Shown: positions 4,114 to 54,261 of the stretch, one piece after another | Position numbering within the stretch: the stretch's first letter is position 1 | How the letters are laid out: the number at the start of each line of letters is the position of its first letter | Source of the DNA: a virus | Taxonomy: Duplodnaviria; Caudoviricetes | Reading direction: 5' to 3' (one strand) | DNA: 54,293 bases | Virus record (IMG/VR): IMGVR_UViG_3300009164_000100 | Location: 1 to 54,293 of that record | Program-made: the position numbers and the translations under genes | The notes under the pieces: generated by a model | What the model saw: only the letters and a program-made list of their open reading frames with translations | What the model was told of the DNA's origin: nothing | Databases searched by the model: none

Positions 4114-4868
4114 AAACCCGGCTGTGCCACGTCAAGGTCGCCTCGGAAGTCTGCTGCACAAGCAGGGCAAGTGTATTCAACATTGGTGTCGATAAAGCCT
4201 TCCGTTTCCACGAACAGATTGCGCAACTCATTGCGCTCACGGCTCCGAAGCCCCTTCAACAAAGTCATAGCAGAAGGAAGGCTCGTCATTCGGTTCAACA
4301 CCGTGTCGCCAATCGCATCTACACGCGAAAGCAACGCAAGCGTGAGCAGGTCATTGTCAGTCTGTGGACGCTTCCGAAGGTTCTGAAGCCAATCCTCGTC
4401 CTGCCCGACCATGATGTGCCATTGCACCACAAGACCCGTCGAAAGGGTCGTCGTGATTCTGCGCTTCATCGGGTCTGCTACGCGGCGCGTCTCAAGGTCG
4501 GCAAGGCTGATCGTAATGCTGCTCTCTTTGCTGCAAGACGGACACTTGATCTTCGTGTCGTAGTCGTCGCCAAGAGAAGCCCGGCGGATAGCAACGAGCA
4601 ACAGCATACGGTCAGTCGCCGTCAAGCCGTCAACCGCACGCGAGATCACACCCTTGTCCGTTGCTTCGCCAATACTTTCAAGGCAGTTTGTGATCACTCG
4701 GTTCAGACGCGGCAAAACAGGCCCCTTGCCCGCAAGCAAGTCCTCTTCCACGCCTGTCATCTCCCGGACCACGAACGATTGGTGCAATTGATTGCGTTCG
4801 TCCAACCATCCACAGGTCAACTCGCCCGACACCACTCCGCTTCTCGGCTCAACGATTTCCATGTTCAT
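4083..4868 (-). CDS. Tail assembly chaperone / T4 gp26-like baseplate hub assembly protein
   Basis: VREMTGVEEDLL, DRMLLLVAIRRASLG, two CxxC motifs (CPSC, CPAC), ends PGFFFP; upstream of TMP; start chosen at MNMEIV after GGAGG. Confidence 0.8.
   Translation of the reverse strand: MNMEIVEPRSGVVSGELTCGWLDERNQLHQSFVVREMTGVEEDLLAGKGPVLPRLNRVITNCLESIGEATDKGVISRAVDGLTATDRMLLLVAIRRASLGDDYDTKIKCPSCSKESSITISLADLETRRVADPMKRRITTTLSTGLVVQWHIMVGQDEDWLQNLRKRPQTDNDLLTLALLSRVDAIGDTVLNRMTSLPSAMTLLKGLRSRERNELRNLFVETEGFIDTNVEYTCPACAADFRGDLDVAQPGFFFPQGQSKR
4110..4119 (-). other. Slippery sequence G GGT TTT TTC (candidate -1 frameshift site)
   Basis: Two overlapping X XXY YYZ heptamers (GGGTTTT, TTTTTTC) in the correct phase near the chaperone 3' end. 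Confidence 0.75.
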
Positions 4869-5013
4869 TCCGACCTCCATTCGCCTGACGGCGGTTCGAT
4901 AAGTAGTCCACGATCAACTGCCGCATAATGTCGGACACAGGGCGACCTTGCGCCTCAGCCTCACGCCGAAGTTCGTCTGCAACCTCTCGCTTTAGGTCGA
5001 AGTTTACGCGCAC
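4849..5013 (-). CDS. Ribbon-helix-helix (CopG/Arc-like) DNA-binding protein, 54 aa (not in ORF track)
   Basis: GGAGG RBS plus GTG; MRVNFDLKREVADELRREAEAQGRPVSDIMRQLIVDYL fits the RHH pattern (alternating beta strand, helix, GxxxS, helix). Confidence 0.8.
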   Translation of the reverse strand: MRVNFDLKREVADELRREAEAQGRPVSDIMRQLIVDYLSNRRQANGGRNEHGNR

Positions 5014-5023
5014 ACCTGCCTCC

Positions 5024-5042
5024 GTGAGTAGGACTTACTCAC
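5024..5042. promoter_or_regulatory. Inverted repeat GTGAGTA-N5-TACTCAC, candidate operator of the RHH gene
   Basis: Perfect 7-bp arms directly upstream of the RHH RBS; TTGACT at 5050-5055. Confidence 0.5.
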
Positions 5043-5081
5043 ACCGGGCAGTCAATGCAAGCGAATGTCGCCACGTCCTAC

Positions 5082-5510
5082 CTACTTGGCAACAGCCGCC
5101 AACCACCCATCGTTGGCATACCCTCTAGCAGCCCCAATGTCGTCGCAGATCGCGTGGAAACAGTAGGCGAACGACTCTTGGTAGTCGTCCTGCAAGGCCC
5201 GATTCTGACCGAGGCTAGGGTCGGCCATCACAGCCGCGTACTCGGCCTCACCGAGGCCTACAATGTGGGTGATAAGGTCGTCGAAGGAATCCCCGCCAAG
5301 GCAATCCACAACATCGTCTAGCCGCTCGTAGAGCGCGTTCACTTTGCCCCGGAAGGCCGCCTCTAGAGAGATCTTGATCTCGATAGCCTGCTGCGGCTCA
5401 TAGGCCGCGTCAATCCGCGCCTTCAGGTCTAGCCCGATGCGCTTGTAGTCGTGGCCGTTGCGCATCCACCCCATGTCGTCAACCGCCTTCCAAAAGTCTT
5501 GATCGTTCAT
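5082..5510 (-). CDS. Hypothetical protein (DUF4240-like N-terminus)
   Basis: MNDQDFWKAVD start after GGAGG; own promoter upstream. Confidence 0.6.
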   Translation of the reverse strand: MNDQDFWKAVDDMGWMRNGHDYKRIGLDLKARIDAAYEPQQAIEIKISLEAAFRGKVNALYERLDDVVDCLGGDSFDDLITHIVGLGEAEYAAVMADPSLGQNRALQDDYQESFAYCFHAICDDIGAARGYANDGWLAAVAK

Positions 5511-5556
5511 CTCATCCTCCAACTTTCGCAACGCCTATCGCTGCGACTATGTGAAG

Positions 5557-5584
5557 ATACTAGCAGGACTTCCTGCCCTGTCAA
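5557..5584 (-). promoter_or_regulatory. sigma70-like promoter
   Basis: TTGACA-N16-TAGTAT with TGn extended -10; spacer holds GCAGGA/TCCTGC inverted repeat. Confidence 0.7.
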
Positions 5585-5636
5585 GGACTTTTGTTCACCC
5601 CGCCCGTGCAATCGGTTGCACCAAAGGGCCGGGAGG

Positions 5637-5849: not shown

Positions 5850-5858
5850 GTTGCTGTC

Positions 5859-5887
5859 GTTATGGCAGGTCTATCCCTGCCTGTAAA
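5859..5887 (-). promoter_or_regulatory. sigma70-like promoter
   Basis: TTTACA-N17-CATAAC, spacer GCAGG...CCTGC. Confidence 0.45.
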
Positions 5888-7718: not shown

Positions 7719-7744
7719 CACAACCTCCAAACGCAACCGATTGC

Positions 7745-8748: not shown

Positions 8749-8965
8749 TGTGACCTCTTGAAAGTTATGGCCGACATACAGGCTGTCGCCGCTTGGTGCA
8801 ATCACTTTGATACATACTGCGGAAAGCCGGGTCGCGCAACTGATTGCGTTTCGCCGTTGCACTTTTGGAATCTGTGACTATCCTACTTCTTGTAGGGGCG
8901 GTTGGGGAATCGCAGAGGCACAAGCCAAAGCCCGTCACGATGCTGTCCTTCGTCGTGGCGGGCCT

Positions 8966-9855: not shown

Positions 9856-9883
9856 AGGATACACGAATCTATCCACCCGTCAA
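9856..9883 (-). promoter_or_regulatory. sigma70-like promoter
   Basis: TTGACG-N16-TATCCT. Confidence 0.55.
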
Positions 9884-9887
9884 GGAC

Positions 9888-11315
9888 TTACTGAACTTCT
9901 TGACTTTCAGATGCAATCGGTTGCGCGAACAGGTCAATCTGATCGTCGCCCGGCTTCTTCCGCAGCACCTTGAGGCTAGAACCTGCCTTTGGTGCAGGCT
10001 TGACCACAACTTCGTCTGCAAACCCGCCGTTACGAAGCGCGTATTCAATCCGGGCCTTCGCTATCTCTAGGTATTCAGCATCTTGCTCGATGCCGATAAA
10101 GTTGAACCCTTCTAGCATAGCAGCCTTGCCTGTGCTTCCGCTGCCCATGAAAGCGTCTAGCACCACTCCGTTCGGTGGCGTGATGAGGCGGCAAAGGTAG
10201 CGCATGAGTTCTGTGTGCTTCACCGTAGGGTGATGGTTCTTGACCTTGCCTGCCGTTCTACTCGCGCCTGCGCGTGGGGAGTTTATGCCTGCCGAGCCTT
10301 CTTCTCGGTCAACCGCTTCTGCACCTGTTCTATCTACAAGATGTTCGCAGCCTTCCTCTCGGTCGCGGCGAGATGCTTTAGCACAGTAGAAGAAGCGGGC
10401 CGCGCTGCCTTTGCTTGGCTCTATGTTTTGTTTTGTAGGCTCCCGAACACCCCATGAATGTTGAACAAATGTGCCTTTGCCGCTATGCGCCCCGCCGTCA
10501 GGAAACCCCGACACCACCTCGGCGCTGCCGTCTGTGATAACATTAGCGGGCCATCTTCCCACAAAGGTTTTCTCGCCCGACTTCACATTACGGCCACCGC
10601 CTGTCGTCTCAAAGCCCCCCGATACCATCGTCAAGTCGTAGGTGCGTTCTTCCGTTCCAATGCGGCAAGCGTCGATGTTCAACGCGCCCGTGCCGTATCG
10701 CAGCACATTCGCCGCTACTGTTCCTTCAAGCGGCTTACGCAAAAGCCACCAATCTTCAGCGGCAGGTTTCAATGCGGTTCCCCAACCTTCCCACTGTTTC
10801 GCTTCGGGCGTAGCCGCAACCGTTATTGGCACCTCGATGGGTTTTACTCCTACGCTGTTTGTGTTCGATGCGTAAGTTCCGCCCTTCTCCGCTGTGCTCT
10901 GCGCGGCGTTGCCTCCTAACCGCTGATGCCCGATAACAGGTCTCTGCGCTCCCGCCGCCTTGTCTATCGCCTTGCCGACATTCAGCGACTTCGGGAAGCC
11001 TGTGCCAAACAAATGCACCACTTTGTCTCTAGGCTCCCAACCTGCGTTCTCCCACGCCGTTCCTGTCCAATGGGAAGTCCGAGGCAAGGCCCATACCAAC
11101 GCATGACCTCCGGGCTTGATCACGCGAAGGCACTCTCGCGCAATCGATTGCATCCACGCAATCCAAGCGTCACGGCCACCCTTGTCCGTATCCCACTCCT
11201 TGCCCATGAACGCGATTCCTGCCGGGGGGTCGGTGACGATTGCATCCACCGAACAGGAAGGAAGCGTCTTGAGAACCTTTAGGCAGTCTCCGTGGTGCAG
11301 CGTGAACTGTGTCAT
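9888..11315 (-). CDS. DNA amino-methyltransferase (N6-adenine/N4-cytosine, beta class)
   Basis: LHHGDCL, IVTDPPA (motif IV), HPTVK, VLDAFMGSGSTG (motif I), FIGIEQD. Confidence 0.93.
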   Translation of the reverse strand: MTQFTLHHGDCLKVLKTLPSCSVDAIVTDPPAGIAFMGKEWDTDKGGRDAWIAWMQSIARECLRVIKPGGHALVWALPRTSHWTGTAWENAGWEPRDKVVHLFGTGFPKSLNVGKAIDKAAGAQRPVIGHQRLGGNAAQSTAEKGGTYASNTNSVGVKPIEVPITVAATPEAKQWEGWGTALKPAAEDWWLLRKPLEGTVAANVLRYGTGALNIDACRIGTEERTYDLTMVSGGFETTGGGRNVKSGEKTFVGRWPANVITDGSAEVVSGFPDGGAHSGKGTFVQHSWGVREPTKQNIEPSKGSAARFFYCAKASRRDREEGCEHLVDRTGAEAVDREEGSAGINSPRAGASRTAGKVKNHHPTVKHTELMRYLCRLITPPNGVVLDAFMGSGSTGKAAMLEGFNFIGIEQDAEYLEIAKARIEYALRNGGFADEVVVKPAPKAGSSLKVLRKKPGDDQIDLFAQPIASESQEVQ

Positions 11316-13282
11316 GCCTGCTTGCTCGCTTCATAGGCCGCAATCCGTTCACCGATCCACTCCATGCAGTTGACCGCCATGCTGTTTCCTAGTGCCTTGT
11401 AGCGAGGACCGTCTGAAGCGGGCTTGCCACGAAAGGGAATCGCTGTCCAATCGTCCGGGAAGCCCTGCAAACGCTCGCACTCGCGGGGCGTGAGGCGGCG
11501 CACGTCGAAGGTTGCGGCATAGACCGCTGCGACCTGCTGCGTGACCTCCGACGATTGCGGCGACCTCGACGGATCGTTGCTCGCGGTGAGGGTCGGCACC
11601 ACAACATAGGGAGCAGAAGCCTCCAAGCAAGCAGGTGCGCCGTGTCCTCCGGCTGTCCTCAAAGGAACATGAACATCACCCGTTGTAGTGTTGTTGTAGA
11701 GGTCAACCCCAACTGCCTTCGTCTCAAAGGCAACGCAAGACCCGCAAGCACGCTCCGTGATTAGCGTCTGCGAAACATCTTCTACATCTGTGGTCGCTGA
11801 CCTCAAGGCCACCGTTCCTACCGTTGTGACAGTAGGTGCAGCGTTAGGTATCATAACTGCTGCGTAGCCCTGCCCCGGCTTGCCGCCACCGCAAGTAAGC
11901 GGATAGGAAATCTCGTCGAGTGACATCGTTCCACGAAACCCGTTCTCTTGGAAAGCAACGGGCTGCGGAATGAGAACTGCATTGGTGTTGGTTCCGTGCT
12001 GCTCGCGCACGACACCCATCACATCACCCGTGAGTTTGCTGTTGTAGACATCAAACGCAATCGGTTGCGCGTGCGCGACAATCGGCACACCTACTAGATG
12101 CGCGGTTTCATTGTATGGAGCCCAACCTGAAGCACCTTGCATTTTTGCCGTTAGGGTCGGTGACGGATCGTAGAATGGAACGGCCCGCGCTGCAACAATC
12201 GGCACGCCGCGCCCCGTTCCATCTTCGCTGCTATCATGCCGCTTCGTCAGCGCGTGCGACACGTCTGCGAGCCCTACGGCGTGCGGCCCCTTTGCCACAA
12301 GTGCGCTCATCGTCTCGCGTCCATCCTGAAGCGGATAGGCAACTATCGTTTCACTACCTCCGCCAAAGTCGCCTCCGGATGCGCGAAGCGTTCCAACACC
12401 TACCTTCCATTCTCCAAACCCTTTGCCTGTGTATGGCATCAGATTCGGACGTTCAGTGACAATCGGATTGCCCGTCACGCCGTCACGCCCGCACGATGGC
12501 CCCTTGTAGTCGCGGGCCGACAAAGTGGTGGCGACTTCTTGATTGGGCGCGTATCGGCTGATCACCACAGGGGCAGGAGCAGAAATCATGCGCCCCGTGC
12601 AAGCATCTTGCAGCGTTTCGCCTACGGTTCCCGCACAGATTGCGCCGACTGTATCAACGCCTGCCTCAAGGCTTGCGGCAAGGCCTTTCCCCGCCTTTCG
12701 GCGCGTTGAAGTATCCCGTTGCACGCTCTCGCGCTCAAATAGAACCGCTGCGGCACTTTCGCTGTCTCCAAGACATCCGACAACGAACACACGTCTCCTG
12801 CGCTGCGAGACGGCGCGTGGATGCCCGTTGCTTCTGCACCATTGAGCGTCCAAGACCCGGTAGGCCCACCCATACCCCAACTCCCCCAATGCCCCGAGGA
12901 AGGTTCCAAAATCCCGTCCTCCGTTGCTCGACAGAACACCGGGGACGTTTTCCCACACAATCCATCGAGGCCGTAGACGGTCAGCGATTGCAAGATAGGT
13001 AAGCATGAGGTTGCCTCGCGGGTCGGCAAGCCCTTTGCGTAGTCCTGCAACGGAGAAGGATTGGCAGGGGGTTCCTCCCACAAGAAGGTCAATTGATCCG
13101 GGTGCGAGTGGCCACGTTTCATGCTTCGTCATGTCTCCAAAGTTAGGAACATTCGGGTAATGGTGCGCCAACACCGCCGAAGGGAACTTCTCAATCTCCG
13201 AGAAGCCCACAGCCTCCCAACCAAGCGGGTGCCATGCGACAGAGGCCGCTTCGATACCGCTGCAAACAGATAGGTATCTCAT
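11312..13282 (-). CDS. DNA cytosine-5 methyltransferase with long variable region
   Basis: CSGIEA (I), GGTPCQSFS (IV), WENVPG (VI), QRRRRVFVVG (VIII), RRLTPRECERLQGFPD (IX), RYKALGNS (X). Confidence 0.95.
   Translation of the reverse strand: MRYLSVCSGIEAASVAWHPLGWEAVGFSEIEKFPSAVLAHHYPNVPNFGDMTKHETWPLAPGSIDLLVGGTPCQSFSVAGLRKGLADPRGNLMLTYLAIADRLRPRWIVWENVPGVLSSNGGRDFGTFLGALGELGYGWAYRVLDAQWCRSNGHPRAVSQRRRRVFVVGCLGDSESAAAVLFERESVQRDTSTRRKAGKGLAASLEAGVDTVGAICAGTVGETLQDACTGRMISAPAPVVISRYAPNQEVATTLSARDYKGPSCGRDGVTGNPIVTERPNLMPYTGKGFGEWKVGVGTLRASGGDFGGGSETIVAYPLQDGRETMSALVAKGPHAVGLADVSHALTKRHDSSEDGTGRGVPIVAARAVPFYDPSPTLTAKMQGASGWAPYNETAHLVGVPIVAHAQPIAFDVYNSKLTGDVMGVVREQHGTNTNAVLIPQPVAFQENGFRGTMSLDEISYPLTCGGGKPGQGYAAVMIPNAAPTVTTVGTVALRSATTDVEDVSQTLITERACGSCVAFETKAVGVDLYNNTTTGDVHVPLRTAGGHGAPACLEASAPYVVVPTLTASNDPSRSPQSSEVTQQVAAVYAATFDVRRLTPRECERLQGFPDDWTAIPFRGKPASDGPRYKALGNSMAVNCMEWIGERIAAYEASKQA
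12622..12873 (-). CDS. Nested alternative-frame ORF in the C5 MTase (putative second MTase polypeptide)
   Basis: Frame open 12622-13122; ATG at 12873 has GGGGAG upstream; encodes SLSDVLETAKVPQRFYLSARACNGILQRAERRGKALP. Confidence 0.55.
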   Translation of the reverse strand: MGGPTGSWTLNGAEATGIHAPSRSAGDVCSLSDVLETAKVPQRFYLSARACNGILQRAERRGKALPQALRQALIQSAQSVREP

Positions 13283-13387
13283 AGCCTCACGACTGCATTC
13301 TTGTTGCTCATCTTCCAACCTCCAACAAGCACCATAGGGCGCGTTCCCCCTATTAGCACAGGTTCCTCGGTCGTCAATAACTTCCGG

Positions 13388-14713: not shown

Positions 14714-14858
14714 GGTGCCTTCCTAGCCTCGACAAGCGAGATCAGACTGTTGATCAAACGGCGCATACTCATTCTGTCCTCCAAAAAGTGGAACGCTCGC
14801 ACAAAGTAACCCATTCCGTTACTCCGTGCAAGCGTTACACAGGTGCAATCAATTGCGT

Positions 14859-41441: not shown

Positions 41442-42195
41442 CGTTCAAGTCCACAGCCGCTTCGTAGTTGTTCGCCAACGCCTCAAAGAAGTCGCCCGCA
41501 TCTAGCCCGCGCTTCCGAACCTCGTTCATCATCTTCTCGATAGCCTTGAAAGCCTTGCTGTTCACCTCAACATACAAGTTCTTCTTCCCGCCCCAATCGA
41601 AGTAGATGAAGTGCTGATTGAGCGTTGCACCATACTTCTGATGTATCTGATAGATTATCTCGGACAGGTTATCGAGGCTCTTGGCATCCTTCGCCTTCGC
41701 CTCCAACTCGTCCTCGGCTTCCGGGGGCAGCCCGGCATCTCGGATAGCCTTGCGTGCGTGGCCAATCATCTTCCGCAGCGCGTCCTTGTCGGCAAAGCCC
41801 ATAAGGTCGGCAACTGCGCTCGCCCCGTGCTTTGCAGCGACCTCCTGATACAGCGCGAGCATCTTCTCGCCGTTCATGCTGCCCTTGATCGCGTTGAGCC
41901 GAACCGTCTCCAACTTCTGACGCTCTTCGTCCTGCCACTTCGGGTCGGTCAACACGACACACGGAATGGTGCTGTAACCGATCATCTTGCAGGCCAAGTG
42001 CCGGTGGTGGCCTCCGATAATCCGATACCGACCGTCACCATTCGGAACCACCTGTACCGGGTCGATCATGCCCCCTTCCTCGATGTTCTGAACAAGCCGC
42101 TTGAACTCCTTGTCCTTCATCTTGTTCGGGTTCCAATCCGCCGCGTCCAACAGGTCGATCCCCAACTCCACATAGTCTCCCGCCAACGACGACAT
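41416..42195 (-). CDS. ParB/Srx N-terminal domain protein
   Basis: WNPNKM, LVQNIEEGGMIDPVQV, YRIIGGHHRHLAC (GxxR box), RLNAIKG, helical/HTH-like C-part; GGAGG RBS before MSSLAG. Confidence 0.88.
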   Translation of the reverse strand: MSSLAGDYVELGIDLLDAADWNPNKMKDKEFKRLVQNIEEGGMIDPVQVVPNGDGRYRIIGGHHRHLACKMIGYSTIPCVVLTDPKWQDEERQKLETVRLNAIKGSMNGEKMLALYQEVAAKHGASAVADLMGFADKDALRKMIGHARKAIRDAGLPPEAEDELEAKAKDAKSLDNLSEIIYQIHQKYGATLNQHFIYFDWGGKKNLYVEVNSKAFKAIEKMMNEVRKRGLDAGDFFEALANNYEAAVDLNGDEDAEEG

Positions 42196-42331
42196 TCTCA
42201 TCCTCCGCGCAATCGATTGCACTCTCGCCACCACAACATGGTGCTATGTTAGTCTTACAGCGAACGCATTGCGTGTGTCCATGCACAAAGACTACTGTGC
42301 CAACATTCCCGCACCATTCGCAACGCCGCAT
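42035..42331 (-). CDS. Small zinc-ribbon protein (C-terminal part overlaps parB)
   Basis: GGAGG RBS; CEWCG...VHGHTQCVRC...PCC. Confidence 0.55.
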   Translation of the reverse strand: MRRCEWCGNVGTVVFVHGHTQCVRCKTNIAPCCGGESAIDCAEDENVVVGGRLCGVGDRPVGRGGLEPEQDEGQGVQAACSEHRGRGHDRPGTGGSEW

Positions 42332-42405: not shown

Positions 42406-43149
42406 TTACTCCGCGTCTCCCGCAATCTCGTCAAGCAGGTCGGCACCGAACACAACCGCATCTGCCTCTTTGTCGTAGGCCACAAGACGCAGCCCGGACG
42501 ACTTCTCAAGCCGCCGCAGCACGCCGAACAGGTCGTCGTCAGCAGCATTCGTGGCGAGGAAATCGGAACAGATAAGGTCGAGCGCGTGACCCTCCTTATC
42601 CGTGTTCGCAAGCGACTTCGCCTTCGCAAGCGCAGCCTCGACATTCGTTGCCTGCTCAGGGAACAGCGCAAACGCCTTCTTGCCCGGCTTTTCGGGAGCC
42701 GTAGGACGGTCGGCCTTCCCGTCAATCGGTGTCTCGTCGCCACCCTTGCCGCCCTTCAACTCCGCGACCATCTCGGCGTAGGTCAGCCCCTCAAGGCGGG
42801 CCTTCCAATCGGCAGCGTTGTCGTCGGTCACAATACCGATCAACTCCTTGGCCTTCGTCCAACCAAGCCCCTGCACCCAAGCCTTCACTTCGGGCTTCAT
42901 CTTGCCGAACCAATCTTGGATTGAAACCAAGTATTGCGCCTTCCGCAGCGCAAACTGCAACTCCGATTCGACATACTCCTTCCAAGAGGAATAGCCCCAC
43001 GGAATGTAGTAAGAACCCTGATAGACCTCGTTCAAGGTCTTGGAAAGTTCCCAATAGGATTCTTCAACCTTGTTGCGAAGGTCGAGGACCTTCTGCCGGG
43101 CTTCGGAATGCTCCTTGCCGCCCTGCATCACTACCAAACTATCACTCAT
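42406..43149 (-). CDS. Putative DNA-binding protein (DUF3102 / pGP6-D-like helical domain)
   Basis: YWELSKTLNEV...GYSSWKEYVESELQFALRKAQYLV...LGWTKA pattern. Confidence 0.6.
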   Translation of the reverse strand: MSDSLVVMQGGKEHSEARQKVLDLRNKVEESYWELSKTLNEVYQGSYYIPWGYSSWKEYVESELQFALRKAQYLVSIQDWFGKMKPEVKAWVQGLGWTKAKELIGIVTDDNAADWKARLEGLTYAEMVAELKGGKGGDETPIDGKADRPTAPEKPGKKAFALFPEQATNVEAALAKAKSLANTDKEGHALDLICSDFLATNAADDDLFGVLRRLEKSSGLRLVAYDKEADAVVFGADLLDEIAGDAE

Positions 43150-46901: not shown

Positions 46902-47429
46902 CTAGAAGCCTACGGGCTTGGCCGAACGCAAAGCCTTCAACTCCGCCTCGATGAAGCGGCCCGTGATGCCCTGAACCACCTTCAACGCCGTCTCAAACGG
47001 CACGCTGTCGGCTACGGGCTCGTCAACCGTCACGTCGAACCGCGCACTCTCATACGCCTTCAACGAACGGGTCATGCCGTAGGTCACTTTGATGCGCCGT
47101 GAACACAGATCGTCGGCATAGGTCAAAGGAACCGCTACACGGTCGCCCTTTGTGATCGAAGCCGTCTCACGGTCAAGGACTTCCTGCGCGATCCGCTTCG
47201 CGCAACCGATTGCGTCACCCCCGTTGTCGGCAAACTCAACTCCGCACTCCACACGCGCAAAGTTGAAGTCGCCAAGCGAGATCGTCCGACCGAGGCTCAC
47301 GCTCACCGTCCGACCCTTCGCCCGACTGTGTTCAGTCGGCTCCGTTTCCGTGCCTTCCATTGTCCGATCCGAAACGCCGCCCGACTTGTGCTCGCGGCTA
47401 ACCAATACCTGACCCGCTACCATCTGCAT
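46902..47429 (-). CDS. Hypothetical protein with internally duplicated domain
   Basis: TVSVSLGRTISLGDFNFARVECGV versus RIKVTYGMTRSLKAYESARFDVTV. Confidence 0.75.
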   Translation of the reverse strand: MQMVAGQVLVSREHKSGGVSDRTMEGTETEPTEHSRAKGRTVSVSLGRTISLGDFNFARVECGVEFADNGGDAIGCAKRIAQEVLDRETASITKGDRVAVPLTYADDLCSRRIKVTYGMTRSLKAYESARFDVTVDEPVADSVPFETALKVVQGITGRFIEAELKALRSAKPVGF

Positions 47430-47808: not shown

Positions 47809-48270
47809 CTAGCCCTGCACTTCGGGCAGATTGTTCCAATGTTCCAAGATCATAGCCGTGAAGCCAATGTTGTCTTTCCGAACATGAATCCGCTTGGTGC
47901 CGTTTCTGTGGGCCTCAATCGCCTTCTTGATCCCCTGCACTTGACCTACCGTGTAGCAGCGCGGGGTCCGGGCAAACGGGTCTGCCGGGATAACGCCCAA
48001 CCGCTCCCACTGAATGATCGTTTCTCGGCTCACATCGAGCAAGAACGCTGCCTCCGATACCGTGTAGCAGTTCCGCTCAACGCTATCTGCACCAACCAAC
48101 CGACCACTACCCCCGTCCTCCGATACCTCCTTCACCGACTTGCGTGACCTCTTGGAGTTCAACAAGACCTTCTCCCGGTAGTTTGGGTCGTTCAGATACC
48201 GATCCTTTCGCCGCTGCGACAACTTCTCTCGGTTCTCTGCATACCACTTCGCAAAGTATTCGTTCGACAT
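47809..48270 (-). CDS. MerR-type HTH DNA-binding protein
   Basis: YTVSEAAFLLDVSRETIIQWERLGVIP...RCYTVGQV. Confidence 0.85.
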   Translation of the reverse strand: MSNEYFAKWYAENREKLSQRRKDRYLNDPNYREKVLLNSKRSRKSVKEVSEDGGSGRLVGADSVERNCYTVSEAAFLLDVSRETIIQWERLGVIPADPFARTPRCYTVGQVQGIKKAIEAHRNGTKRIHVRKDNIGFTAMILEHWNNLPEVQG

Positions 48271-48279: not shown

Positions 48280-49764
48280 CTAAATCGATCCAATCTCTTT
48301 GTAAAAACCAAGTCTGCGCTTGTAACTGTTCATCAGCCGCGTCACGTTCTCGTCCACCACATCGACCACAATCGGATGCGGCTTCCCCTCACAAGAGCCT
48401 GCCCTCCACGGGCAAAGGTGCTTGCATTTCGTTTCGCTAGGCTTGCAATGCCGACGCACCCGGCCAACTGCCTGTTCTGCGTCTCCAAGCGGAGTGACTA
48501 GCACCAACACATCAATCGCAGGAATGTCCAAGCCTTCCTCGATCATCTGCTTAGTCGCCAAGACAACATTCGCTCGCTCTGCCTGCTTCAGATCGGCTTC
48601 CGTGCGCGTGCGCTTGCGAGGTTGGCCTTTGGCATCAACGCCCCCGACATACCACTCGCCCGTGTAACAGTCGATCACAGGCTCAAACGGCAGATCCATG
48701 CGCAACAGGACGCTTGCCAACTCCCGCTCTAGCACCTTCAAGTGACCTAGCCGCTCGCTGACGACCATCACCTTCCGGCCCTTTGCAACTGCCTGCGCAA
48801 CCTCGTCGGCAATCATCTTGTTTCGCAGCGGGTTCTCCACCAACTGCGTCACGATCTGCGTGTGGTTCAACTTGTCCTCCGAGATCATTCGACCCCGGAC
48901 GCGCACAGGATTCATGTGGATCTGTGTCCGTAACCGCTTCAGACTTGGAACGATTGCATTGGTTTTGGCCGAGTAAAGGATCTCGCCTATGTGGTAGTAG
49001 AAGGCATCTTCTGCACCATCCTTGCGGCGCGGAGTAGCAGTCAACCCAAGTCGATACCGGGCGTTGAACCGAGGCATAATGTCCGACCACGACTGCGCTC
49101 CTACCCGGTGGCACTCGTCGCTGACGACAAGGCCGAACGCATCGTAGATCGCATCGGGGTACTTGCTCCCGCTCTGATCGTCTCGCGCAATTGATTGCAG
49201 CATCCCAATCACGAAGTCGCAACCCTCATAGTCGCAAACATCCTGTCTTATGGTGCCAATCTTCGCGTCCGGGAAGAAGTCCTCAATCCGTTCCCGCCAC
49301 TGACGCATAAAGAACTCCTTGTGGACTAGGATTAGCGTGCGCTTGCCTACCCGACGAGCGAACTCCAAGGCCACATTCGTCTTGCCGAATCCACAGCCTG
49401 CCCGGAGAATGAAGCCTCCCCACGGGTTCTCCTCCGTGTACCGCACCATTGTCTCAAGCGCGGCTCCCTGCTCCGCATACGGCCCCTCGAAACGCATCTT
49501 CGTTCCGAACTTCGCCATAGGCATACCGTCTGCCGTCATGCAGATTTCCTCATGCGCTGCGGTCCGGTTCTGCGCGTAGAAACCCCTCGGCATACCGAAC
49601 CAACGCTCGTCCTCCTTGTAGAGCAGAATCGGCATAGGAGGTTCAGTCGCAAACTCCGCGTGGACAGTCGGAGTGATCGTCAACCGCTCACGGAGATTGC
49701 GAAGATGATGCTGATCCAACTCGCGCTTGTCTAACCATACTCGACCATCAACCTTGACGCGCAC
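48280..49764 (-). CDS. SF2 DNA helicase (UvsW/XPB-like)
   Basis: AGCGFGKT, SDECH, GLTATPRRKDG, EEGLDIP, QAVGRVRR. Confidence 0.95.
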   Translation of the reverse strand: MRVKVDGRVWLDKRELDQHHLRNLRERLTITPTVHAEFATEPPMPILLYKEDERWFGMPRGFYAQNRTAAHEEICMTADGMPMAKFGTKMRFEGPYAEQGAALETMVRYTEENPWGGFILRAGCGFGKTNVALEFARRVGKRTLILVHKEFFMRQWRERIEDFFPDAKIGTIRQDVCDYEGCDFVIGMLQSIARDDQSGSKYPDAIYDAFGLVVSDECHRVGAQSWSDIMPRFNARYRLGLTATPRRKDGAEDAFYYHIGEILYSAKTNAIVPSLKRLRTQIHMNPVRVRGRMISEDKLNHTQIVTQLVENPLRNKMIADEVAQAVAKGRKVMVVSERLGHLKVLERELASVLLRMDLPFEPVIDCYTGEWYVGGVDAKGQPRKRTRTEADLKQAERANVVLATKQMIEEGLDIPAIDVLVLVTPLGDAEQAVGRVRRHCKPSETKCKHLCPWRAGSCEGKPHPIVVDVVDENVTRLMNSYKRRLGFYKEIGSI

Positions 49765-50739: not shown

Positions 50740-51816
50740 TCAACCGAACAACGCCAACACTTCCTCTTGCGAAAGGTCGGCAGGGTCGCGCCCGAAAGGG
50801 CAGTCAATGATCTTTGGTGCAATGCTGTAACGCCGCATAGCCTCAACGACATCTACCGCCATCTTTCGCCCGGCATCGTCGCCGTCTCCCATAACATAAA
50901 CCGCGTCCGTTCGCTGCGCAATCAGTTGCGCCTGTCCTGCGGAAAGACTTGCACCAAGTATCGCAACCGGGTGCCTAACCCCGTGCCGCCACAGATTCAG
51001 CGCATCCGTAGTGCCTTCCGTAACCACGATAGGCTCTCCCTTCACATGGCGATCAATCCCAAACAGGCTCGTTCGTCGCCACGGCCCCGAATGGTGCTTG
51101 TATTTTGCGTAGTTGACCTTGCAGCCTTCGCAGAACTTATGCTCCGAAATCATCTCACCGCACCGATAGCAATGAGGCTTATCCCAATAGGTCCTCGCCG
51201 TGTAGCCTACCAACGAACCGTCAACTGCCCGGATAGGATGAACCCAACGCCTATCCTTCTCATTGTGGCCTAGCCGCCATTCCTTGTGAACCTCCGCAAA
51301 CCCACGCTTTACCGCGTAGGCAGGAATAGGTGCCGCAATCCAACGCTCCACTAGGTCGTTGTCGGGAGGCTCATACTCCACCTTCTCTTTCACACGGCTG
51401 CTGTACGATACCTCCGGCAGAAGGCTCCCCTGAAAGATCTGCTTTCGGATAGTCGGCCCCTCAAACGAGAACCGACCCCCCATAGAATAGTCTAGGTGCC
51501 GAACAGGTGGACGCTCCACTTCTTCGATTTCCCAACCATGCGATAAGATAGATGCCCGGTCCTCGTATGGTGCGCCCAATGCCGCCATACGCCACACCAT
51601 CTTCGGCAGCGGCCCACCTTCGCCACAAGCCAAACACTTGTAGGAGTAGTAGCCCTTCCGACCTTCCATAACCACGAACGAAGGATTGCTGTCCGAACCC
51701 TTGCTGTGCGTCCACCGGGCAAACGGGCAGGTCGCTTCCAACTTGCCGCCACGCCAACCACGCATCTCCGACCCGTAAAGCCGAAGCAACTGCTCCACTT
51801 CTAACTTGCGAGACAT
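50740..51816 (-). CDS. dnaG: DNA primase (Zn-binding domain + TOPRIM)
   Basis: CPF..H...DSNPSF...CLACG, GYTAR, VVTEGTTDA, MGDGDDAG, GRDPAD; extra CYRC/CEGC ribbon. Confidence 0.92.
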   Translation of the reverse strand: MSRKLEVEQLLRLYGSEMRGWRGGKLEATCPFARWTHSKGSDSNPSFVVMEGRKGYYSYKCLACGEGGPLPKMVWRMAALGAPYEDRASILSHGWEIEEVERPPVRHLDYSMGGRFSFEGPTIRKQIFQGSLLPEVSYSSRVKEKVEYEPPDNDLVERWIAAPIPAYAVKRGFAEVHKEWRLGHNEKDRRWVHPIRAVDGSLVGYTARTYWDKPHCYRCGEMISEHKFCEGCKVNYAKYKHHSGPWRRTSLFGIDRHVKGEPIVVTEGTTDALNLWRHGVRHPVAILGASLSAGQAQLIAQRTDAVYVMGDGDDAGRKMAVDVVEAMRRYSIAPKIIDCPFGRDPADLSQEEVLALFG

Positions 51817-51820
51817 AGGG

Positions 51821-53128
51821 CTAAAATGGTGCAGAGTAGTCGTCGTCGTCAACGACACCGCTGCTACTTGTGTTGAAATCATCCTTGTAGACCTGCTTTC
51901 TTGACCCGTCCGAAACGATCTCACCGAACCGCATTGCGTCGAAATCCCAATGCACCTCAATCGGGGTGCCGTCATGCGACCCGCGCCGCAACTTGCCCAC
52001 ATGGAACTTCAGCCTACGGTCAGCCTTCATGTCGCTGTCCTGCTCCATGATAAAGACCGCGTGAGCATCCCAAAGCAACTGATCCGACAAGGCAATCGCG
52101 CTTGTATCGTAGCCACCGCCCTGTTTCTTGTCTTTCGTTGCCTGCCGGGACAACTGATGAAAGGCCACGAACGGAATACGGTGCCGCTTCGCAGACTGAC
52201 GGATCCAATCCACAGCCCGCTGCGTCCGTTCCATCTTATCGCCCTTGGTGCGGATCATGTAGATACTGTCTACCGCAACTAGGTCGGGCTTCACCGCCGT
52301 TATCGCAGCGTCAATCCCGTTCGGAGTCAGATCGTCTGCGCTGTCCATAACATAAATCCCGTCCTTCCCGGATAGGCTCTCTATGGTGTCAAACAACTTC
52401 TTCTCGGAGAACCCGTCCAACTTGCCGCGCATAATCCCGCCCGCCGAAACATTCGCCTGCACGATAAAGAACCGCTCTGCGATCTCGGACTTGCTCATCT
52501 CCGGCGACACGATCAGAACTCGCTTGCCCGCACGCCAAGTATCACGCGCAATCAGGGTCGCTACCTGCGTCTTGCCAACGCCCGGACGGGCCACAAAGTA
52601 GGTTGCCGTAGACGGCCACAAGCCCATCGTCAGGTCAGTCATGCTAGGCCACGGGAGCGGTATCCCCGTGTAGCCGTCCTTGACCTTTAGGTATGCCTCC
52701 TTGACGCTATCCCCAAGGTCGAAAATCTTGCTCGGAATGCTGCCTTTCGATGCGCCAACCTCGCTCCCCGCAAAGTCACGCAACAACTCTAACGCCGCGT
52801 CCGGGTTGTTTTGGTGCAACTTGTCGGTGGCCTGTGAGATCGCTTCGGCAATCCGACGATACGACTTCCGCTTCAAGACTTCTTGCACCACAAAGGACGA
52901 CGCAATGTCTCGGTACAGGCTCTCGTCCAACTCCAACCCGCACACCCCGGCCACAGCCGAAAGGCCGCTCGGAGCGTTATGGTCAACCGCGTGCTGCACG
53001 ATAAAGTTGTACGCCTTACGGTGACGTGGATCGTCAAACTCCGCTGCGTCGAACCCGGTCATTTGCAGCCTCTCGACAACCGATAGATCGGTCGCCGCGA
53101 AGTAGATAACGGCTACTTCAATGTCCAT
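51821..53128 (-). CDS. dnaB: Replicative DNA helicase
   Basis: ARPGVGKT, SPEMS, VAVDSIY, HQLSR, KLRRG. Confidence 0.93.
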   Translation of the reverse strand: MDIEVAVIYFAATDLSVVERLQMTGFDAAEFDDPRHRKAYNFIVQHAVDHNAPSGLSAVAGVCGLELDESLYRDIASSFVVQEVLKRKSYRRIAEAISQATDKLHQNNPDAALELLRDFAGSEVGASKGSIPSKIFDLGDSVKEAYLKVKDGYTGIPLPWPSMTDLTMGLWPSTATYFVARPGVGKTQVATLIARDTWRAGKRVLIVSPEMSKSEIAERFFIVQANVSAGGIMRGKLDGFSEKKLFDTIESLSGKDGIYVMDSADDLTPNGIDAAITAVKPDLVAVDSIYMIRTKGDKMERTQRAVDWIRQSAKRHRIPFVAFHQLSRQATKDKKQGGGYDTSAIALSDQLLWDAHAVFIMEQDSDMKADRRLKFHVGKLRRGSHDGTPIEVHWDFDAMRFGEIVSDGSRKQVYKDDFNTSSSGVVDDDDYSAPF

Positions 53129-53141
53129 TAGAACCGCCTAT

Positions 53142-53795
53142 TTAGGATAGCAGAGAACCGATCTCTTGCTTCGCCTTCTCCCGTAGATCCTCGCCCAACA
53201 ACCGGACAGGATAGATGCATTCTTTGAGGCTGTGCATCGTAGACGCTTTCAACTCGTCCTCCAATGCCTTCAGCGTCATGTTCGTCGTGATAAAGGTCAC
53301 GCGCTTGTTTGCGTTGCGGTGGCGGATCAACTCGTCCAACACCCTAGCACCAAAGCCCGTGCTGTCCTGTACGCCTTTTCCAAGGTCGTCAATCAACAGA
53401 ACATCAACCGACTTCGCCCGGTCCCATAGCGTCTGTTCCTCGTCAAACGCTTCGTTGTGGATGATTGCACCCTTCAACTCCGCGCTCTCCAAGAACATCA
53501 GCGAGTGACCACGCCTGCGGTACTCCTTGCCTAGCACCACCGCTAGGCTCGTCTTGCCAATCCCGTTCGCGCCCCAAAGCAGAAGCCCAACGCCCCGTTC
53601 GTGCATCTGCGCGAACTCCTTTAGGTACTTCTCGGCAACGCCCCGGACCTGCTCTTGCACGCCCGCTAGGTTCACCGTCCAATACCGCATCGGAACACGC
53701 GCACGCAACAAGTCGTCCTGCGTCAACTCACGACGAAACGGCTGTGTTTCACCATCCTGCATCGGGCGATCCATCGTCATCGGTGTATTCGTCAC
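53142..53795 (-). CDS. dnaC: DnaC/IstB-like AAA+ helicase loader
   Basis: GLLLWGANGIGKT, LLIDDLGK, LIRHR, TFITTN. Confidence 0.9.
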   Translation of the reverse strand: MTNTPMTMDRPMQDGETQPFRRELTQDDLLRARVPMRYWTVNLAGVQEQVRGVAEKYLKEFAQMHERGVGLLLWGANGIGKTSLAVVLGKEYRRRGHSLMFLESAELKGAIIHNEAFDEEQTLWDRAKSVDVLLIDDLGKGVQDSTGFGARVLDELIRHRNANKRVTFITTNMTLKALEDELKASTMHSLKECIYPVRLLGEDLREKAKQEIGSLLS

Positions 53796-54261
53796 TATTC
53801 TTGGCGGCTACCTGCCGCTTACCAACTTGGACGGATCCGAAGATCTCGTTCCGCATAGCCCAAAACAACCCAAAGGTTGGTGCGCCATTCAGCCGTCCAC
53901 GGCTTCTCTTTACCAACTTATCCCAATCTTGGCAATAGGACTTTACAGCCTTCTCAACCAAGTCGGCTCCGTAGTCCTCAAGCAGACGCTTCGCTAACGC
54001 CTTCTCCTTCACCGTCCACCTAGAAACGACAAAGGCAGGTCCATACAGTTCTTGCAGCCCGGCCTTGAACCATGCTTCGACCTGCGTGGCCGTTACAGGC
54101 TTGGCCTTTGGTGCAGACGGCTCAAGAACCAACGGCTGCGCAACTGATTGCGTAGCCTTTCGCTCCTCGCGCTTGACCTCGACTTCGGCCCTAACCTGCC
54201 GGGTTGCTTCCGCTTGGGCCGCGACCTTCTGCATCAATGCCGCCAACTTGACTCTGCTCAT
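53749..54261 (-). CDS. Hypothetical protein, possibly replication-initiator associated
   Basis: Directly upstream of dnaC; helical KALAKRLLEDYGADLVEKAV segment. Confidence 0.6.
   Translation of the reverse strand: MSRVKLAALMQKVAAQAEATRQVRAEVEVKREERKATQSVAQPLVLEPSAPKAKPVTATQVEAWFKAGLQELYGPAFVVSRWTVKEKALAKRLLEDYGADLVEKAVKSYCQDWDKLVKRSRGRLNGAPTFGLFWAMRNEIFGSVQVGKRQVAAKNSDEYTDDDGSPDAGW

What the first reader, a model, noticed from the sequence alone, without database searches (positions are those of the whole stretch)
4784..54151. Genome-wide 16-bp palindrome (RYGCAAYYRRTTGCRY) with a perfect copy at the parB RBS: candidate dispersed centromere/operator system
Seen: at least 18 copies of the core GCAA(T/C)(C/T)(G/A)(A/G)TTGC, starting at 4784, 5608, 7733, 8836, 9913, 11140, 12057, 14845, 16954, 24598, 31480, 36610, 38750, 42209, 47202, 49187, 50918, 54140, plus 5 near-copies. 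Each keeps one intact GCAATC half-site, and 17 of 18 extend to RY...RY flanks. With equal base frequencies about 0.05 copies of the core are expected in 54 kb. Most copies lie inside genes and are read in different frames (AQPIA, QSIAR, CNQLH, AIGCA), so selection acts on the DNA. Several flank promoters (5608, 7733, 9913, 14845). A perfect GCAATCGATTGC lies ~14 bp upstream of the likely parB start. Known: parS is a 16-bp palindrome; RK2 KorB and phage N15 SopB use dispersed palindromes for partition and repression; LacI-family operators look similar. Inference: a phage-encoded (ParB 41416-42195 or neighbour 42406-43149) or host protein coats this genome about every 3 kb, for segregation, compaction, packaging or global repression.
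Basis: partly seen in the sequence, partly recalled or inferred. Interest (0 to 1): 0.9.

Follow-up and report, generated by a model that had tools for sequence, protein, structure and literature searches.

The report
Evenly spaced 16-bp palindromes in phages
This phage genome carries a conserved 16-base palindrome about every 3,000 bases, the same kind of mark turns up in many related phages including cultured ones, and it does not depend on the ParB gene first suspected, so what reads it is still unknown.

Summary
There are 18 exact GCAAYYRRTTGC copies, against 0.11 in dinucleotide shuffles. In-gene copies number 13, against 0.64 in synonymous-codon shuffles. 17 of 18 have RY..RY flanks. The window is a distant T4-like phage contig. 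In syntenic relatives of 64-79% DNA identity the sites stay at the same positions in 8 of 11 comparisons.

The motif is one variant of a wider pattern, (N)T/Y-GCAA-N4-TTGC-R/A(N). It occurs at 0.15-0.45 per kb, more evenly spaced than chance, in many phages that share a DnaB, SF2 helicase, UvsX and TerL core. Cultured examples are Stenotrophomonas DLP_5 (32 copies), Rhodobacter RcKickapoo (30), Agrobacterium JP1 (35) and Rhizobium RHph_Y1_11 (16). The central 4 bp differ between lineages.

The motif is not abundant in 151 + 151 genomes sampled from two host families.

The ParB centromere/operator reading fails as a general explanation. Two complete motif-rich genomes have no ParB_N domain. Several ParB-encoding relatives lack the motif. 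Motif class does not follow the ParB tree.

My best reading is binding sites for an unidentified phage-encoded dimeric protein that marks the genome at regular intervals. No paper found in my searches describes this motif.

The parts
4784..4795 (.). motif copy GCAATTGATTGC, inside the baseplate-like gene 4083-4868(-)
5608..5619 (.). motif copy, intergenic, 23 nt upstream (minus orientation) of a -35-like TTGACA within AGTCCTTGAC
7733..7744 (.). motif copy, intergenic, 14 nt before the ATG at 7718, directly 5' of GGAGG
8836..8847 (.). motif copy between a hairpin (8930-8963) and gene 7798-8748(-)
9913..9924 (.). motif copy in the last 25 nt of the N6/N4 methyltransferase gene, 29 nt upstream of TTGACG within AGTCCTTGAC
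11140..11151 (.). perfect copy GCAATCGATTGC in the 5' part of the N6/N4 methyltransferase gene
12057..12068 (.). motif copy inside the C5 methyltransferase gene
14845..14856 (.). motif copy between the stop of 14859-15434(-) and the terminator-like hairpin 14836-14792; kept in relative G001
16954..16965 (.). motif copy at the 3' end of the PAP2 gene, where minus- and plus-strand genes converge
24598..24609 (.). motif copy inside 24312-24800(-); kept in G001 (flanks 66% identical)
31480..31491 (.). motif copy inside 31119-31676(-)
36610..36621 (.). motif copy inside 36089-36940(-)
38750..38761 (.). motif copy at the 3' end of the large terminase gene, 47 nt before the portal ATG; kept in G001, absent in G002 and G005
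42209..42220 (.). perfect copy 13 nt before the ATG of the ParB_N gene; kept in G002 and G005; the centre flips CG/TG/CA among close relatives
47202..47213 (.). motif copy inside 46902-47429(-), 25 nt upstream of TTGACC within AGTCCTTGAC
49187..49198 (.). motif copy inside the SF2 helicase gene; kept in G002, absent in G004
50918..50929 (.). motif copy inside the primase gene; kept in G002 and G004
54140..54151 (.). motif copy inside 53749-54261(-)
30768..30779 (.). decayed copy GCATTCGATTGC; the same place is an intact site in relative L007
7126..7137 (.). one-mismatch near-copy GCAATCGAATGC
41416..42195 (-). ParB_N-domain protein P0001; its model resembles Noc/ParB/KorB; not required for the motif in relatives
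42406..43149 (-). P0002, a conserved phage protein of no known family with a helix-turn-helix-like segment (SWKEYVESELQFALRKAQYLVSI); candidate reader, unproven
47809..48270 (-). MerR-like helix-turn-helix protein P0003; weaker candidate (found in 20 of 33 records)

Best explanation
The 18 copies are binding sites for a phage-encoded, dimeric, sequence-specific DNA-binding protein. They are kept by selection at roughly even 3-kb intervals along the whole genome.

They are not operators of particular genes and not a ParB centromere. They form a genome-wide mark that a process acting on the whole phage chromosome needs. Candidate processes are organisation or coating of the DNA, or telling phage DNA from host DNA, during recombination-dependent replication and packaging.

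The outer half-sites (GCAA/TTGC with R/Y flanks, centres about 10 bp apart) would be read in successive major grooves. The central 4 bp are read too, or sensed by shape, because they are uniform within a genome and change between lineages.

What is shown: the sites, their selection, their even spacing, their spread across phages of different hosts, and their independence from ParB. What is inferred: that a protein binds, that the phage encodes it, and what the process is. The best candidate in the window is P0002 (42406-43149), at about 0.2.
For: 1. Enrichment: 18 copies against 0.11 in shuffles, and 13 in-gene copies against 0.64 after codon shuffling.

2. Positional conservation: the site is kept in 8 of 11 site-by-relative comparisons with G001, G002, G004 and G005, while the 60-nt flanks are only 60-74% identical.

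3. Dyad symmetry includes the centre in most lineages (TCGA, ACGT, GCGC). There is no excess of complementary flank pairs over independence in any of 13 records, which fits a protein dimer on DNA rather than an RNA or cruciform stem.

4. Spacing is more even than random. The coefficient of variation is 0.38-0.72, and P(CV <= observed) is below 0.02 in 9 of 10 records; for the window alone it is 0.09.

5. Density is similar across phages:
- window 18 per 54 kb
- DLP_5 32 per 96.5 kb
- G207 30 per 95 kb
- G208 27 per 77 kb
- G211 31 per 84 kb
- JP1 35 per 97 kb
- RcKickapoo 30 per 94 kb

6. Sites favour gaps between genes (window 5 of 18 in 7.5% non-coding DNA, P = 0.009) and one tolerant reading phase (10 of 13). 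This is what a costly but required DNA mark would show.

7. No core gene has a site consistently upstream.

8. The host does not explain it.
- 151 genomes of the family of a Lysobacteraceae MAG hold 0-26 copies each.
- 151 genomes of the family of a Boseongicola MAG hold 0-4 near-exact 14-mers each.
- Phages of Agrobacterium and Rhizobium have different centres (ACGT against CAAA).
- Phages of Rhodobacter and Stenotrophomonas and this freshwater phage share TCGA/TCAA.

9. No LacI-type domain is encoded in 30 phage records.
Against: No binding protein has been identified.
- Every gene shared by all motif-rich genomes (DnaB, SF2 helicase, UvsX, TerL, mostly primase and the P0002 family) is also present in relatives without this motif.
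- The P0002 family was not found in motif-rich G233 (89% complete) or G214 (64% complete).
- The P0002 model has no significant match among solved structures. The best lead is a Noc DNA-binding domain at E = 3.

The motif variants fit operators of host LacI-family regulators, so a host reader is not excluded.

Asymmetric variants point one way along the genes in several genomes: G211 20:0, JP1 ACAT 10:0, RHph_Y1_11 CAAA 8:0. A simple symmetric dimer site does not predict this.

The host of the window phage is unknown, so the host-wide test was indirect.
Confidence: 0.45

Rival explanations
1. The ParB_N protein (41416-42195) loads at the palindromes like ParB/KorB/Noc and spreads, acting as a dispersed centromere and global operator.
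For: - The ParB model (pLDDT 75) matches Noc, CTP-bound ParB and KorB over about 200 columns (E about 1e-7, TM 0.3-0.46).
- A perfect site sits at its ribosome-binding site and is kept in relatives with 74-80% identical ParB.
- 3-kb spacing would suit a clamp that slides a kilobase or two (inference).
- DLP_5 is reported as a temperate phagemid (abstract of PMC5834331).
Against: - G220 and G227 are complete by the tool's CheckV figure, have 24 and 27 copies, and give no PF02195 match at E <= 0.01 and no A1 profile match at 1e-5.
- G220 is a T4-like relative of the window with the same gene order but no ParB gene next to the terminase gene.
- ParB-encoding records with no motif include G198 (0 in 160 kb), G170 (0 in 126 kb) and G184 (1 in 185 kb).
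- Motif class A needs at least 4 changes on the ParB tree.
- The helix after the N domain is not conserved among class-A ParBs.
- No ParA-type partner appeared in the roughly 50 window proteins scanned against Pfam.
Confidence: 0.12
2. The sites are operators of a host LacI-family regulator (PurR, CcpA or MalR type). The replicating phage genome soaks up the regulator, or ties phage activity to host metabolism.
For: - The variants fit the LacI-family operator template TGnAAnCGnTTnCA (recalled, not from a call).
- GCAAACGTTTGC occurs in papers on the PurR regulon and MalR, and GCAAGCGCTTGC in a CcpA paper (search listing only).
- Bacterial genomes carry a few copies, somewhat above the reversed control.
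- The phages encode no LacI-type domain.
Against: - Close hosts have different centres and distant hosts share the same centre.
- DLP_5 has 0 of 32 copies with the central CG, although TCGA is not avoided in its genome (649 against 349 expected).
- Even spacing, positional conservation and one-way orientation are not needed for a sponge.
Confidence: 0.12
3. The motif is a Chi-like control signal for the phage's own helicase-nuclease and recombinase (SF2 helicase, Cas4/RecB-like nuclease, UvsX). It spares and recombines phage DNA while unmarked DNA is degraded.
For: - All motif-rich genomes share the SF2 helicase and UvsX, and most have a PD-(D/E)XK nuclease.
- Regular spacing, phage specificity and one-way orientation of asymmetric variants resemble Chi (the Chi properties are recalled).
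Against: - Known Chi sites are short, asymmetric and read on single strands. Here a 16-bp dyad is kept, centre included.
- The same genes occur in relatives without the motif.
Confidence: 0.1
4. The motif is a by-product of methylation and short-patch repair, as proposed for HIP1-type palindromes, with no reader protein.
For: - The window encodes a C5 and an N6/N4 DNA methyltransferase.
- The centres are 4-bp palindromes typical of methylase sites.
- The central CG flips to TG or CA among near-identical relatives.
Against: - CpG is not depleted (observed/expected 0.93-1.15).
- Transitions at CpG are only 1.24 times those at other G/C positions.
- The even spacing and a 16-bp specification go beyond known cases of this kind.
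- Not abundant in the host families sampled.
Confidence: 0.05
5. The motif acts in RNA, as a 6-bp hairpin with a 4-nt loop placed before ribosome-binding sites, for processing or stability.
For: - Nearly all genes lie on one strand, and several intergenic copies lie directly 5' of a ribosome-binding site (window 7733 and 42209; DLP_5 3265, 6376, 28135, 61255, 78485).
Against: - Flank positions show no excess of complementary pairs (window 7 of 18 against 9.5 expected; similar in 12 other records).
- The 'loop' is itself palindromic in most lineages.
- Most copies lie deep inside genes.
Confidence: 0.04

Closest known systems
17-bp dyad repeats of Cluster O mycobacteriophages (5'-TGTTCGGNNNCCGAACA)
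   Same: More than 30 copies per roughly 70-kb genome, with dyad symmetry. They lie between genes, near gene starts and inside genes, and most are not at promoters. The authors predict a dimeric DNA-binding protein and a role other than transcription initiation. Those phages also encode a ParB-like domain protein, which the authors judge unlikely to serve genome stability (passages of PMC4351075).
   Different: The sequence and architecture differ (7-bp arms with a 3-bp spacer), as do the host phylum and phage type. That paper reports no lineage series with changing centres, no even-spacing statistic and no spread over several phage groups. Function is unknown there too. G198 in my set has a similar N3-spaced motif, TCCGGA-N3-TCCGGA, in 14 copies.
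KorB operators (OB) of plasmid RK2 and the dispersed SopB sites of phage N15
   Same: Palindromes of 13-16 bp scattered over a replicon, some far from promoters or inside genes, read by a ParB-family protein (recalled). The window's ParB_N protein folds like KorB, Noc and ParB.
   Different: ParB is dispensable here. There are about 10 times more sites than N15's four (recalled), and no partner ATPase was seen in the window.
Stoperators of Cluster A mycobacteriophages
   Same: Dozens of short sites along the genome, inside and between genes (recalled; also mentioned in PMC4351075).
   Different: Stoperators are asymmetric, oriented with transcription and bound by the prophage repressor. Here the sites are symmetric and occur in T4-like phages that carry no sign of lysogeny in the window.
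LacI/GalR-family operators (PurR box, cre)
   Same: The same template, with outer GCAA/TTGC and a central pyrimidine-purine step. The JP1 and G209 variant equals the palindromic PurR box (listing).
   Different: Density is about 330 per Mb in the phages, against at most about 9 per Mb in the 151 genomes sampled from the first host family. No LacI domain is encoded in the phages. The centre does not follow the host.
HIP1 of cyanobacteria and Chi sites
   Same: Short over-represented words spread along a genome.
   Different: HIP1 and Chi are properties of the host genome. This motif is phage-specific in the two host families sampled, and it is longer than either (HIP1 and Chi lengths recalled). 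It is also symmetric, which Chi is not.

Membership tests
ParB-parS / KorB-OB type system | A ParB-family protein (ParB_N, CTP-binding fold) is encoded by the replicon | tested here: met
   PF02195 at E 1.4e-9 on 41416-42234; the model matches Noc, ParB and KorB.
ParB-parS / KorB-OB type system | The sites and the ParB gene occur together across relatives | tested here: not met
   G220 and G227 are motif-rich and complete but have no ParB_N. G198, G170, G184 and others have ParB but no motif. Motif class is polyphyletic on the ParB tree.
ParB-parS / KorB-OB type system | A partner ATPase (ParA/IncC type) | tested here: not met
   None was seen among the roughly 50 window proteins scanned against Pfam. 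The only P-loop hit is IstB/DnaC-like, next to DnaB. The window is only 32% of the genome.
ParB-parS / KorB-OB type system | ParB binds the palindrome | not testable with these tools
   Needs EMSA or ChIP.
Dispersed dyad-symmetric phage repeats (Cluster O type) | Tens of copies of one dyad-symmetric word along the genome, in genes and between them, mostly away from promoters | tested here: met
   compared with passages of PMC4351075.
Stoperators | Asymmetric site oriented with transcription | tested here: not met
   The consensus is a palindrome. Only the imperfect variants show orientation bias.
LacI-family operator | Sequence fits TGnAAnCGnTTnCA with a central CG | tested here: inconclusive
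   It fits in the window, G208, G209, JP1 and RcKickapoo. The centre is CA/TG in all 32 DLP_5 copies, and CAAA or TAAA in RHph_Y1_11 and G207. The template is recalled.
LacI-family operator | A LacI-family regulator that binds it | tested here: inconclusive
   No PF00356 match in 30 phage records. Host regulators were not testable because the host is unknown.
HIP1-like host-wide repeat | Comparable density in the host chromosome | tested here: not met
   0-26 copies per genome in 151 genomes, and 0-4 near-exact 14-mers in another 151, of two host families. The window's own host is unknown.

The most novel reading that the evidence does not exclude
A previously unrecognised phage 'genome-marking' system. 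Lineage-specific 16-bp palindromes are kept every 3 kb or so, so that a phage-encoded reader can coat, organise or recognise the phage chromosome as self during recombination-dependent replication and packaging. The specificity of reader and sites co-evolves between lineages. The system is shared by T4-like myoviruses and 95-kb siphoviruses of Proteobacteria.
Probability: 0.3. Interest if true: 0.9.

Novelty: new variant of a known kind. Interest (0 to 1): 0.8.

Why it matters
Dispersed dyad repeats have been reported in one mycobacteriophage cluster and left unexplained. Here the same kind of element is shown to be widespread, under selection, evenly spaced, and variable in sequence between lineages. 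It occurs in cultured phages of Rhodobacter, Agrobacterium, Rhizobium and Stenotrophomonas, so its reader and function can now be found with ordinary experiments.

If it marks phage DNA for a genome-wide process, it would be a new principle of phage chromosome biology. It would also be a useful signature for grouping uncultured phages. The result also removes a tempting wrong assignment, that of ParB centromere.

Tried and rejected
**ParB as reader.** Rejected as a general explanation.

**Autoregulation.** No core gene has a site consistently upstream.

**Gene-content association.**
- tblastn of window proteins and DLP_5 ORFs against 80 loci and 17 whole records found no gene present in all motif-rich genomes and absent from motif-poor ones.
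- The P0002 profile was found in 30 of 33 records, including all 8 motif-poor ones.
- MerR-like P0003 was found in 20 of 33.

**P0002 annotation.**
- No Pfam family; one PHROG of unknown function.
- The protein atlas gave only weak leads (DUF1016/ParB HTH 0.84, DUF3102 0.83).
- Foldseek against PDB gave nothing at E <= 0.001.
- A profile search of PDB sequences gave nothing.
- BFVD gave only uncharacterised phage proteins.

**Phage-encoded LacI domain.** None found.

**RNA or cruciform stem.** No flank covariation.

**CpG decay or TCGA avoidance as the cause of the YYRR centre.** Not supported.

**Host identification.**
- The nearest cultured phages have a major capsid protein less than 40% identical to the window's.
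- The genome search does not draw relatives for virus records.

**Sequencing runs.** All 24 runs are kept as contigs from freshwater or lake metagenomes. Nothing can be said from them about ends, nicks or transcripts at the sites.

**Literature.**
- Searches and passage searches found no description of this motif in phages. One search located the Rhodobacter phage paper.
- The DLP3/DLP5 and Rhodobacter phage papers contain no 'palindrom' in their main text.
- Supplementary files were not read (closed) and could hold repeat tables.
- Only part of the literature is searchable.

**Not tried.** Complex prediction, because no binding pair is claimed.

Full report
**What the window is.** The window is a whole IMG/VR virus record of 54,293 bp, estimated 32% complete. 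It encodes a T4-type major capsid protein (31757-33358), prohead protease, portal, large terminase and tail sheath. It also encodes an N6/N4 and a C5 DNA methyltransferase, an SF2 helicase and a ParB_N-domain protein. Further genes are a DnaB-like helicase with an IstB/DnaC-like loader, a primase, a UvsX/RecA-like recombinase, Hjc-like, RuvC-like and Cas4/PD-(D/E)XK nucleases, a MerR-like protein and ThyX. Nearly all genes lie on the minus strand. The nearest cultured phages have less than 40% capsid identity. Runs that hold the sequence are freshwater or lake metagenomes.

**The observation.**
- All 18 copies are present at the stated coordinates, against 0.11 (largest 3) in 100 dinucleotide shuffles. 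The reversed control pattern has none.
- 17 of 18 copies have RY flanks on both sides.
- Shuffling synonymous codons within genes 1000 times gives 0.64 in-gene copies (maximum 4), against 13 observed.
- Five of 18 copies are not inside called genes, although only 7.5% of the window is non-coding (P = 0.009).
- Ten of the 13 in-gene copies use one reading phase, which encodes harmless residues (A/M/V/T-Q-P/S/L-I/V-A). The proteins concerned are unrelated to one another (methyltransferases, terminase, helicase, primase, a PAP2 protein), so the constraint is on the DNA.

**Selection.** Twelve contigs found through the capsid or ParB protein all carry the motif. Four of them (G001, G002, G004, G005) are syntenic with the window at 64-79% DNA identity. 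In 8 of 11 comparisons of a window site with its aligned place in these four, the motif is kept, while the surrounding 60 nt on each side are 60-74% identical. Three are lost: 38750 in G002 and G005, and 49187 in G004. The near-copy at 30768 is an intact site in L007. So sites are held in place by selection, but they also turn over. The central CG of the site at the parB start reads CG, TG or CA among contigs whose ParB is 90-99% identical.

**A much wider phenomenon.** Eighty viral contigs encoding relatives of the ParB_N protein (alignment A1) were fetched. Many carry their own dispersed 12-mer:
- GCAATCGATTGC
- GCAAGCGCTTGC
- GCAAACGTTTGC
- GCAATAAATTGC
- GCACACGTGTGC (10 copies in 11.6 kb)
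- GCACTTAAGTGC

Whole-record counts of GCAA-N4-TTGC, with the reversed control in brackets:
- G207: 30 in 95 kb (0)
- G208: 27 in 77 kb (2)
- G211: 31 in 84 kb (0)
- G204: 18 in 100 kb (0)
- G209: 18 in 98 kb (1)

Each genome has a sharp 16-bp consensus, for example TT-GCAA-ACGT-TTGC-AA in G209 (17 of 18 copies) and GT-GCAA-TCGA-TTGC-AC in G208.

Cultured phages carry it too (control in brackets where counted):
- Stenotrophomonas phage DLP_5: 32 copies, none in the reversed control, consensus yTGCAATCAATTGCAr.
- Rhodobacter phage RcKickapoo: 30 copies (3), of which at least 21 are perfect GCAATCGATTGC.
- Agrobacterium phage JP1: 35 copies (4), of GCAAAC(G/A)TTTGC.
- Rhizobium phage RHph_Y1_11: 16 copies (0), mostly GCAACAAATTGC.
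- Vibrio KarBoss (4 copies) and Arthrobacter Kitkat (1 copy) do not carry it.

**Spacing and placement.** Gaps between sites are more regular than random placement. The coefficient of variation is 0.38-0.72, and P(CV <= observed) from 5000 simulations is below 0.02 in 9 of 10 records; for the window alone it is 0.09. With crude ORF calls, sites are enriched outside long ORFs in every record, for example DLP_5 with 12 of 35 sites in 11% of the genome and G207 with 20 of 30 in 12.5%. The same reading phase dominates among in-ORF sites in most records. No core gene (DnaB, primase, SF2 helicase, UvsX, P0002 family, ParB, TerL) has a site consistently upstream.

In the window, all three exact copies of AGTCCTTGAC, which contains a -35-like TTGAC, lie 23-29 nt downstream of a palindrome. 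The distance varies, and 15 of 18 sites have no such partner.

**Host or phage?**
It showed single scattered hits over many phyla.
- Five of those genomes hold 9-14 copies of the degenerate 12-mer per 5-7 Mb. The exception is a Ktedonobacteraceae MAG with 94, arranged in close pairs.
- In 151 genomes of the family of a MAG titled Lysobacteraceae, the count is 0-26 per genome, at most about 9 per Mb, against about 330 per Mb in DLP_5 and the window. Genome names are hidden, so I cannot say that Stenotrophomonas itself was among them.
- In 151 genomes of the family of a MAG titled Boseongicola, TGCAATCGATTGCA with up to one mismatch occurs 0-4 times per genome.
- The centre differs between phages of Agrobacterium and Rhizobium. 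It is shared between phages of Rhodobacter and Stenotrophomonas and this freshwater phage. This argues for a phage-borne determinant.

**The ParB hypothesis.** The ParB_N protein has the GxxRxxA-like box (GHHRHLA), and its model resembles Noc, ParB and KorB.

1. On a ParB tree of 70 sequences (quick IQ-TREE; duplicates dropped as listed), motif class A needs at least four changes. One clade with 100% support holds classes C, E, F and A. Large clades have no motif.
2. The helix following the N domain is not conserved among ParBs of genomes with the same motif.
3. Scans made with the motif alone (GTGCAATCGATTGCAC and TTGCAAACGTTTGCAA) brought in new motif-rich records. Among 38 records examined, 5 match the ParB profile. 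G220 (133.7 kb, 24 copies) and G227 (116 kb, 27 copies) are both reported 100% complete with direct terminal repeats, and they have no PF02195 match at E <= 0.01.
4. G220 is a T4-like relative of the window (capsid 36%, portal 39%, terminase 34% identical) with the same order of replication, recombination and packaging genes, but no ParB gene before the terminase gene.

- Genes shared by all motif-rich genomes are DnaB, SF2 helicase, UvsX and TerL, and in nearly all also primase and the P0002 family. All of these also occur in relatives that lack GCAA-N4-TTGC.
- Some of those relatives have other palindromes: G198 has TCCGGA-N3-TCCGGA 14 times, G163 has TGCAC-N4-GTGCA 7 times, and G167 has CGACC-N4-GGTCG 7 times. 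So a shared protein with shifting specificity is possible.
- P0002 (42406-43149) has a helix-turn-helix-like segment with a conserved R-K-A-x-Y-L helix. In G192 it carries an intein-like insertion at a conserved GW|TK. It was found in 30 of 33 records, but not in motif-rich G233 (89% complete) or G214.
- The P0002 model (pLDDT 84) has no significant solved relative. The best lead is the Noc DNA-binding domain at E = 3.
- No LacI-type domain is encoded in 30 records.

**Other readings.**
- An RNA or cruciform stem is unlikely. Flank positions 1-16 and 2-15 are complementary no more often than independence predicts, in the window (7 and 10 of 18, against 9.5 and 9.3 expected) and in 12 other records.
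- Methylation-driven decay does not explain the YYRR centre. CpG observed/expected is 0.93-1.15. TCGA is not avoided; in DLP_5 it is in excess (649 against 349 expected). CpG transitions between the window and its close relatives are only 1.24 times those at other G/C positions.
- The variants match operators of host LacI-family regulators. GCAAACGTTTGC appears in PurR and MalR papers, and GCAAGCGCTTGC in a CcpA paper (I saw the search listing only). A host reader therefore stays a live rival.
- An unexplained point is that imperfect, asymmetric variants point one way along the genes: G211 20:0, JP1 ACAT 10:0, RHph_Y1_11 CAAA 8:0, DLP_5 19:8.

**Comparison with what is known.** The closest described case is the 17-bp dyad repeat of Cluster O mycobacteriophages. 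It has more than 30 copies, between and within genes, and its function is unknown. The authors predict a dimeric binding protein acting in something other than transcription initiation, and they discount their ParB-like protein (passages of PMC4351075). The DLP3/DLP5 paper and the Rhodobacter phage paper do not mention palindromes in their main text. Searches for the motif strings found no phage paper.

**Verdict.** The ParB interpretation is not supported. The most likely mechanism is a regularly spaced set of binding sites for an unidentified phage-encoded dimeric protein serving a genome-wide function (0.45). Host-regulator, Chi-like and ParB readings come behind it.

Noticed in passing
window 5580-5589, 9879-9888, 47172-47181 (minus strand): Three exact copies of AGTCCTTGAC, a -35-like TTGAC with a conserved upstream extension. 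Two have a matching -10 by the consensus scan. All three lie 23-29 nt downstream of a palindrome copy. This is probably one promoter class of this phage.
   Followed up: partly
G192 (IMG/VR record behind L308), about 21950-23686: The P0002-family gene is a 688-aa open frame with a roughly 430-aa insertion at the conserved GW|TK motif. The insertion is intein-like, which suggests an essential protein.
   Followed up: no
DLP_5 68211-73322; L606 17842-23336; L608 18256-20690; L609 1412-7058; L610 10104-16660: The gene order glycosyltransferase, small ORF, ParB-like nuclease, small ORF, terminase is conserved in cultured phages of Stenotrophomonas, Rhizobium, Agrobacterium and Rhodobacter. In Arthrobacter phage Kitkat the glycosyltransferase, small ORF and ParB-like gene lie near the genome end, with no terminase gene in the fetched stretch. 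Sugar-nucleotide enzymes lie nearby. This hints that this ParB-like protein works with DNA modification or packaging rather than partition.
   Followed up: no
G010 (Ktedonobacteraceae MAG behind L177): 94 copies of GCAAYYRRTTGC in 3.8 Mb (control 4), mostly GCAATTGATTGC in pairs 40-53 bp apart. This looks like the ends of a small repeated element and is unrelated to the phage question.
   Followed up: no
G198, G163, G167 (IMG/VR records behind L314, L266, L271): Relatives that lack GCAA-N4-TTGC have other over-represented palindromes: TCCGGA-N3-TCCGGA (14 copies in 160 kb), TGCAC-N4-GTGCA (7 in 113 kb) and CGACC-N4-GGTCG (7 in 113 kb).
   Followed up: partly
loci from one sample (contigs of 19-38 kb): About 25 separate contigs from one sample each carry one perfect GTGCAATCGATTGCAC. 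The seven of them that were counted hold only 2-3 GCAA-N4-TTGC per genome. This is probably an ordinary operator of another phage group.
   Followed up: partly
JP1, RHph_Y1_11, G211, DLP_5: Imperfect centres are strongly one-directional relative to the gene strand (ACAT 10:0, CAAA 8:0, 20:0, 19:8). The cause could be strand-biased mutation, coding constraint or functional polarity; it is unexplained.
   Followed up: partly
window 11312-13318 (minus strand): The C5 cytosine methyltransferase has its Pfam match split into two stretches, one at residues 13-195. PHROG matches to the C-terminal part lie at about 590-667, which leaves roughly 400 unmatched residues between, possibly several target-recognition domains.
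   Followed up: no
window 14792-14836 and 8930-8963: Long hairpins with T-runs lie next to sites 14845 and 8836. They are likely terminators at operon boundaries.
   Followed up: no
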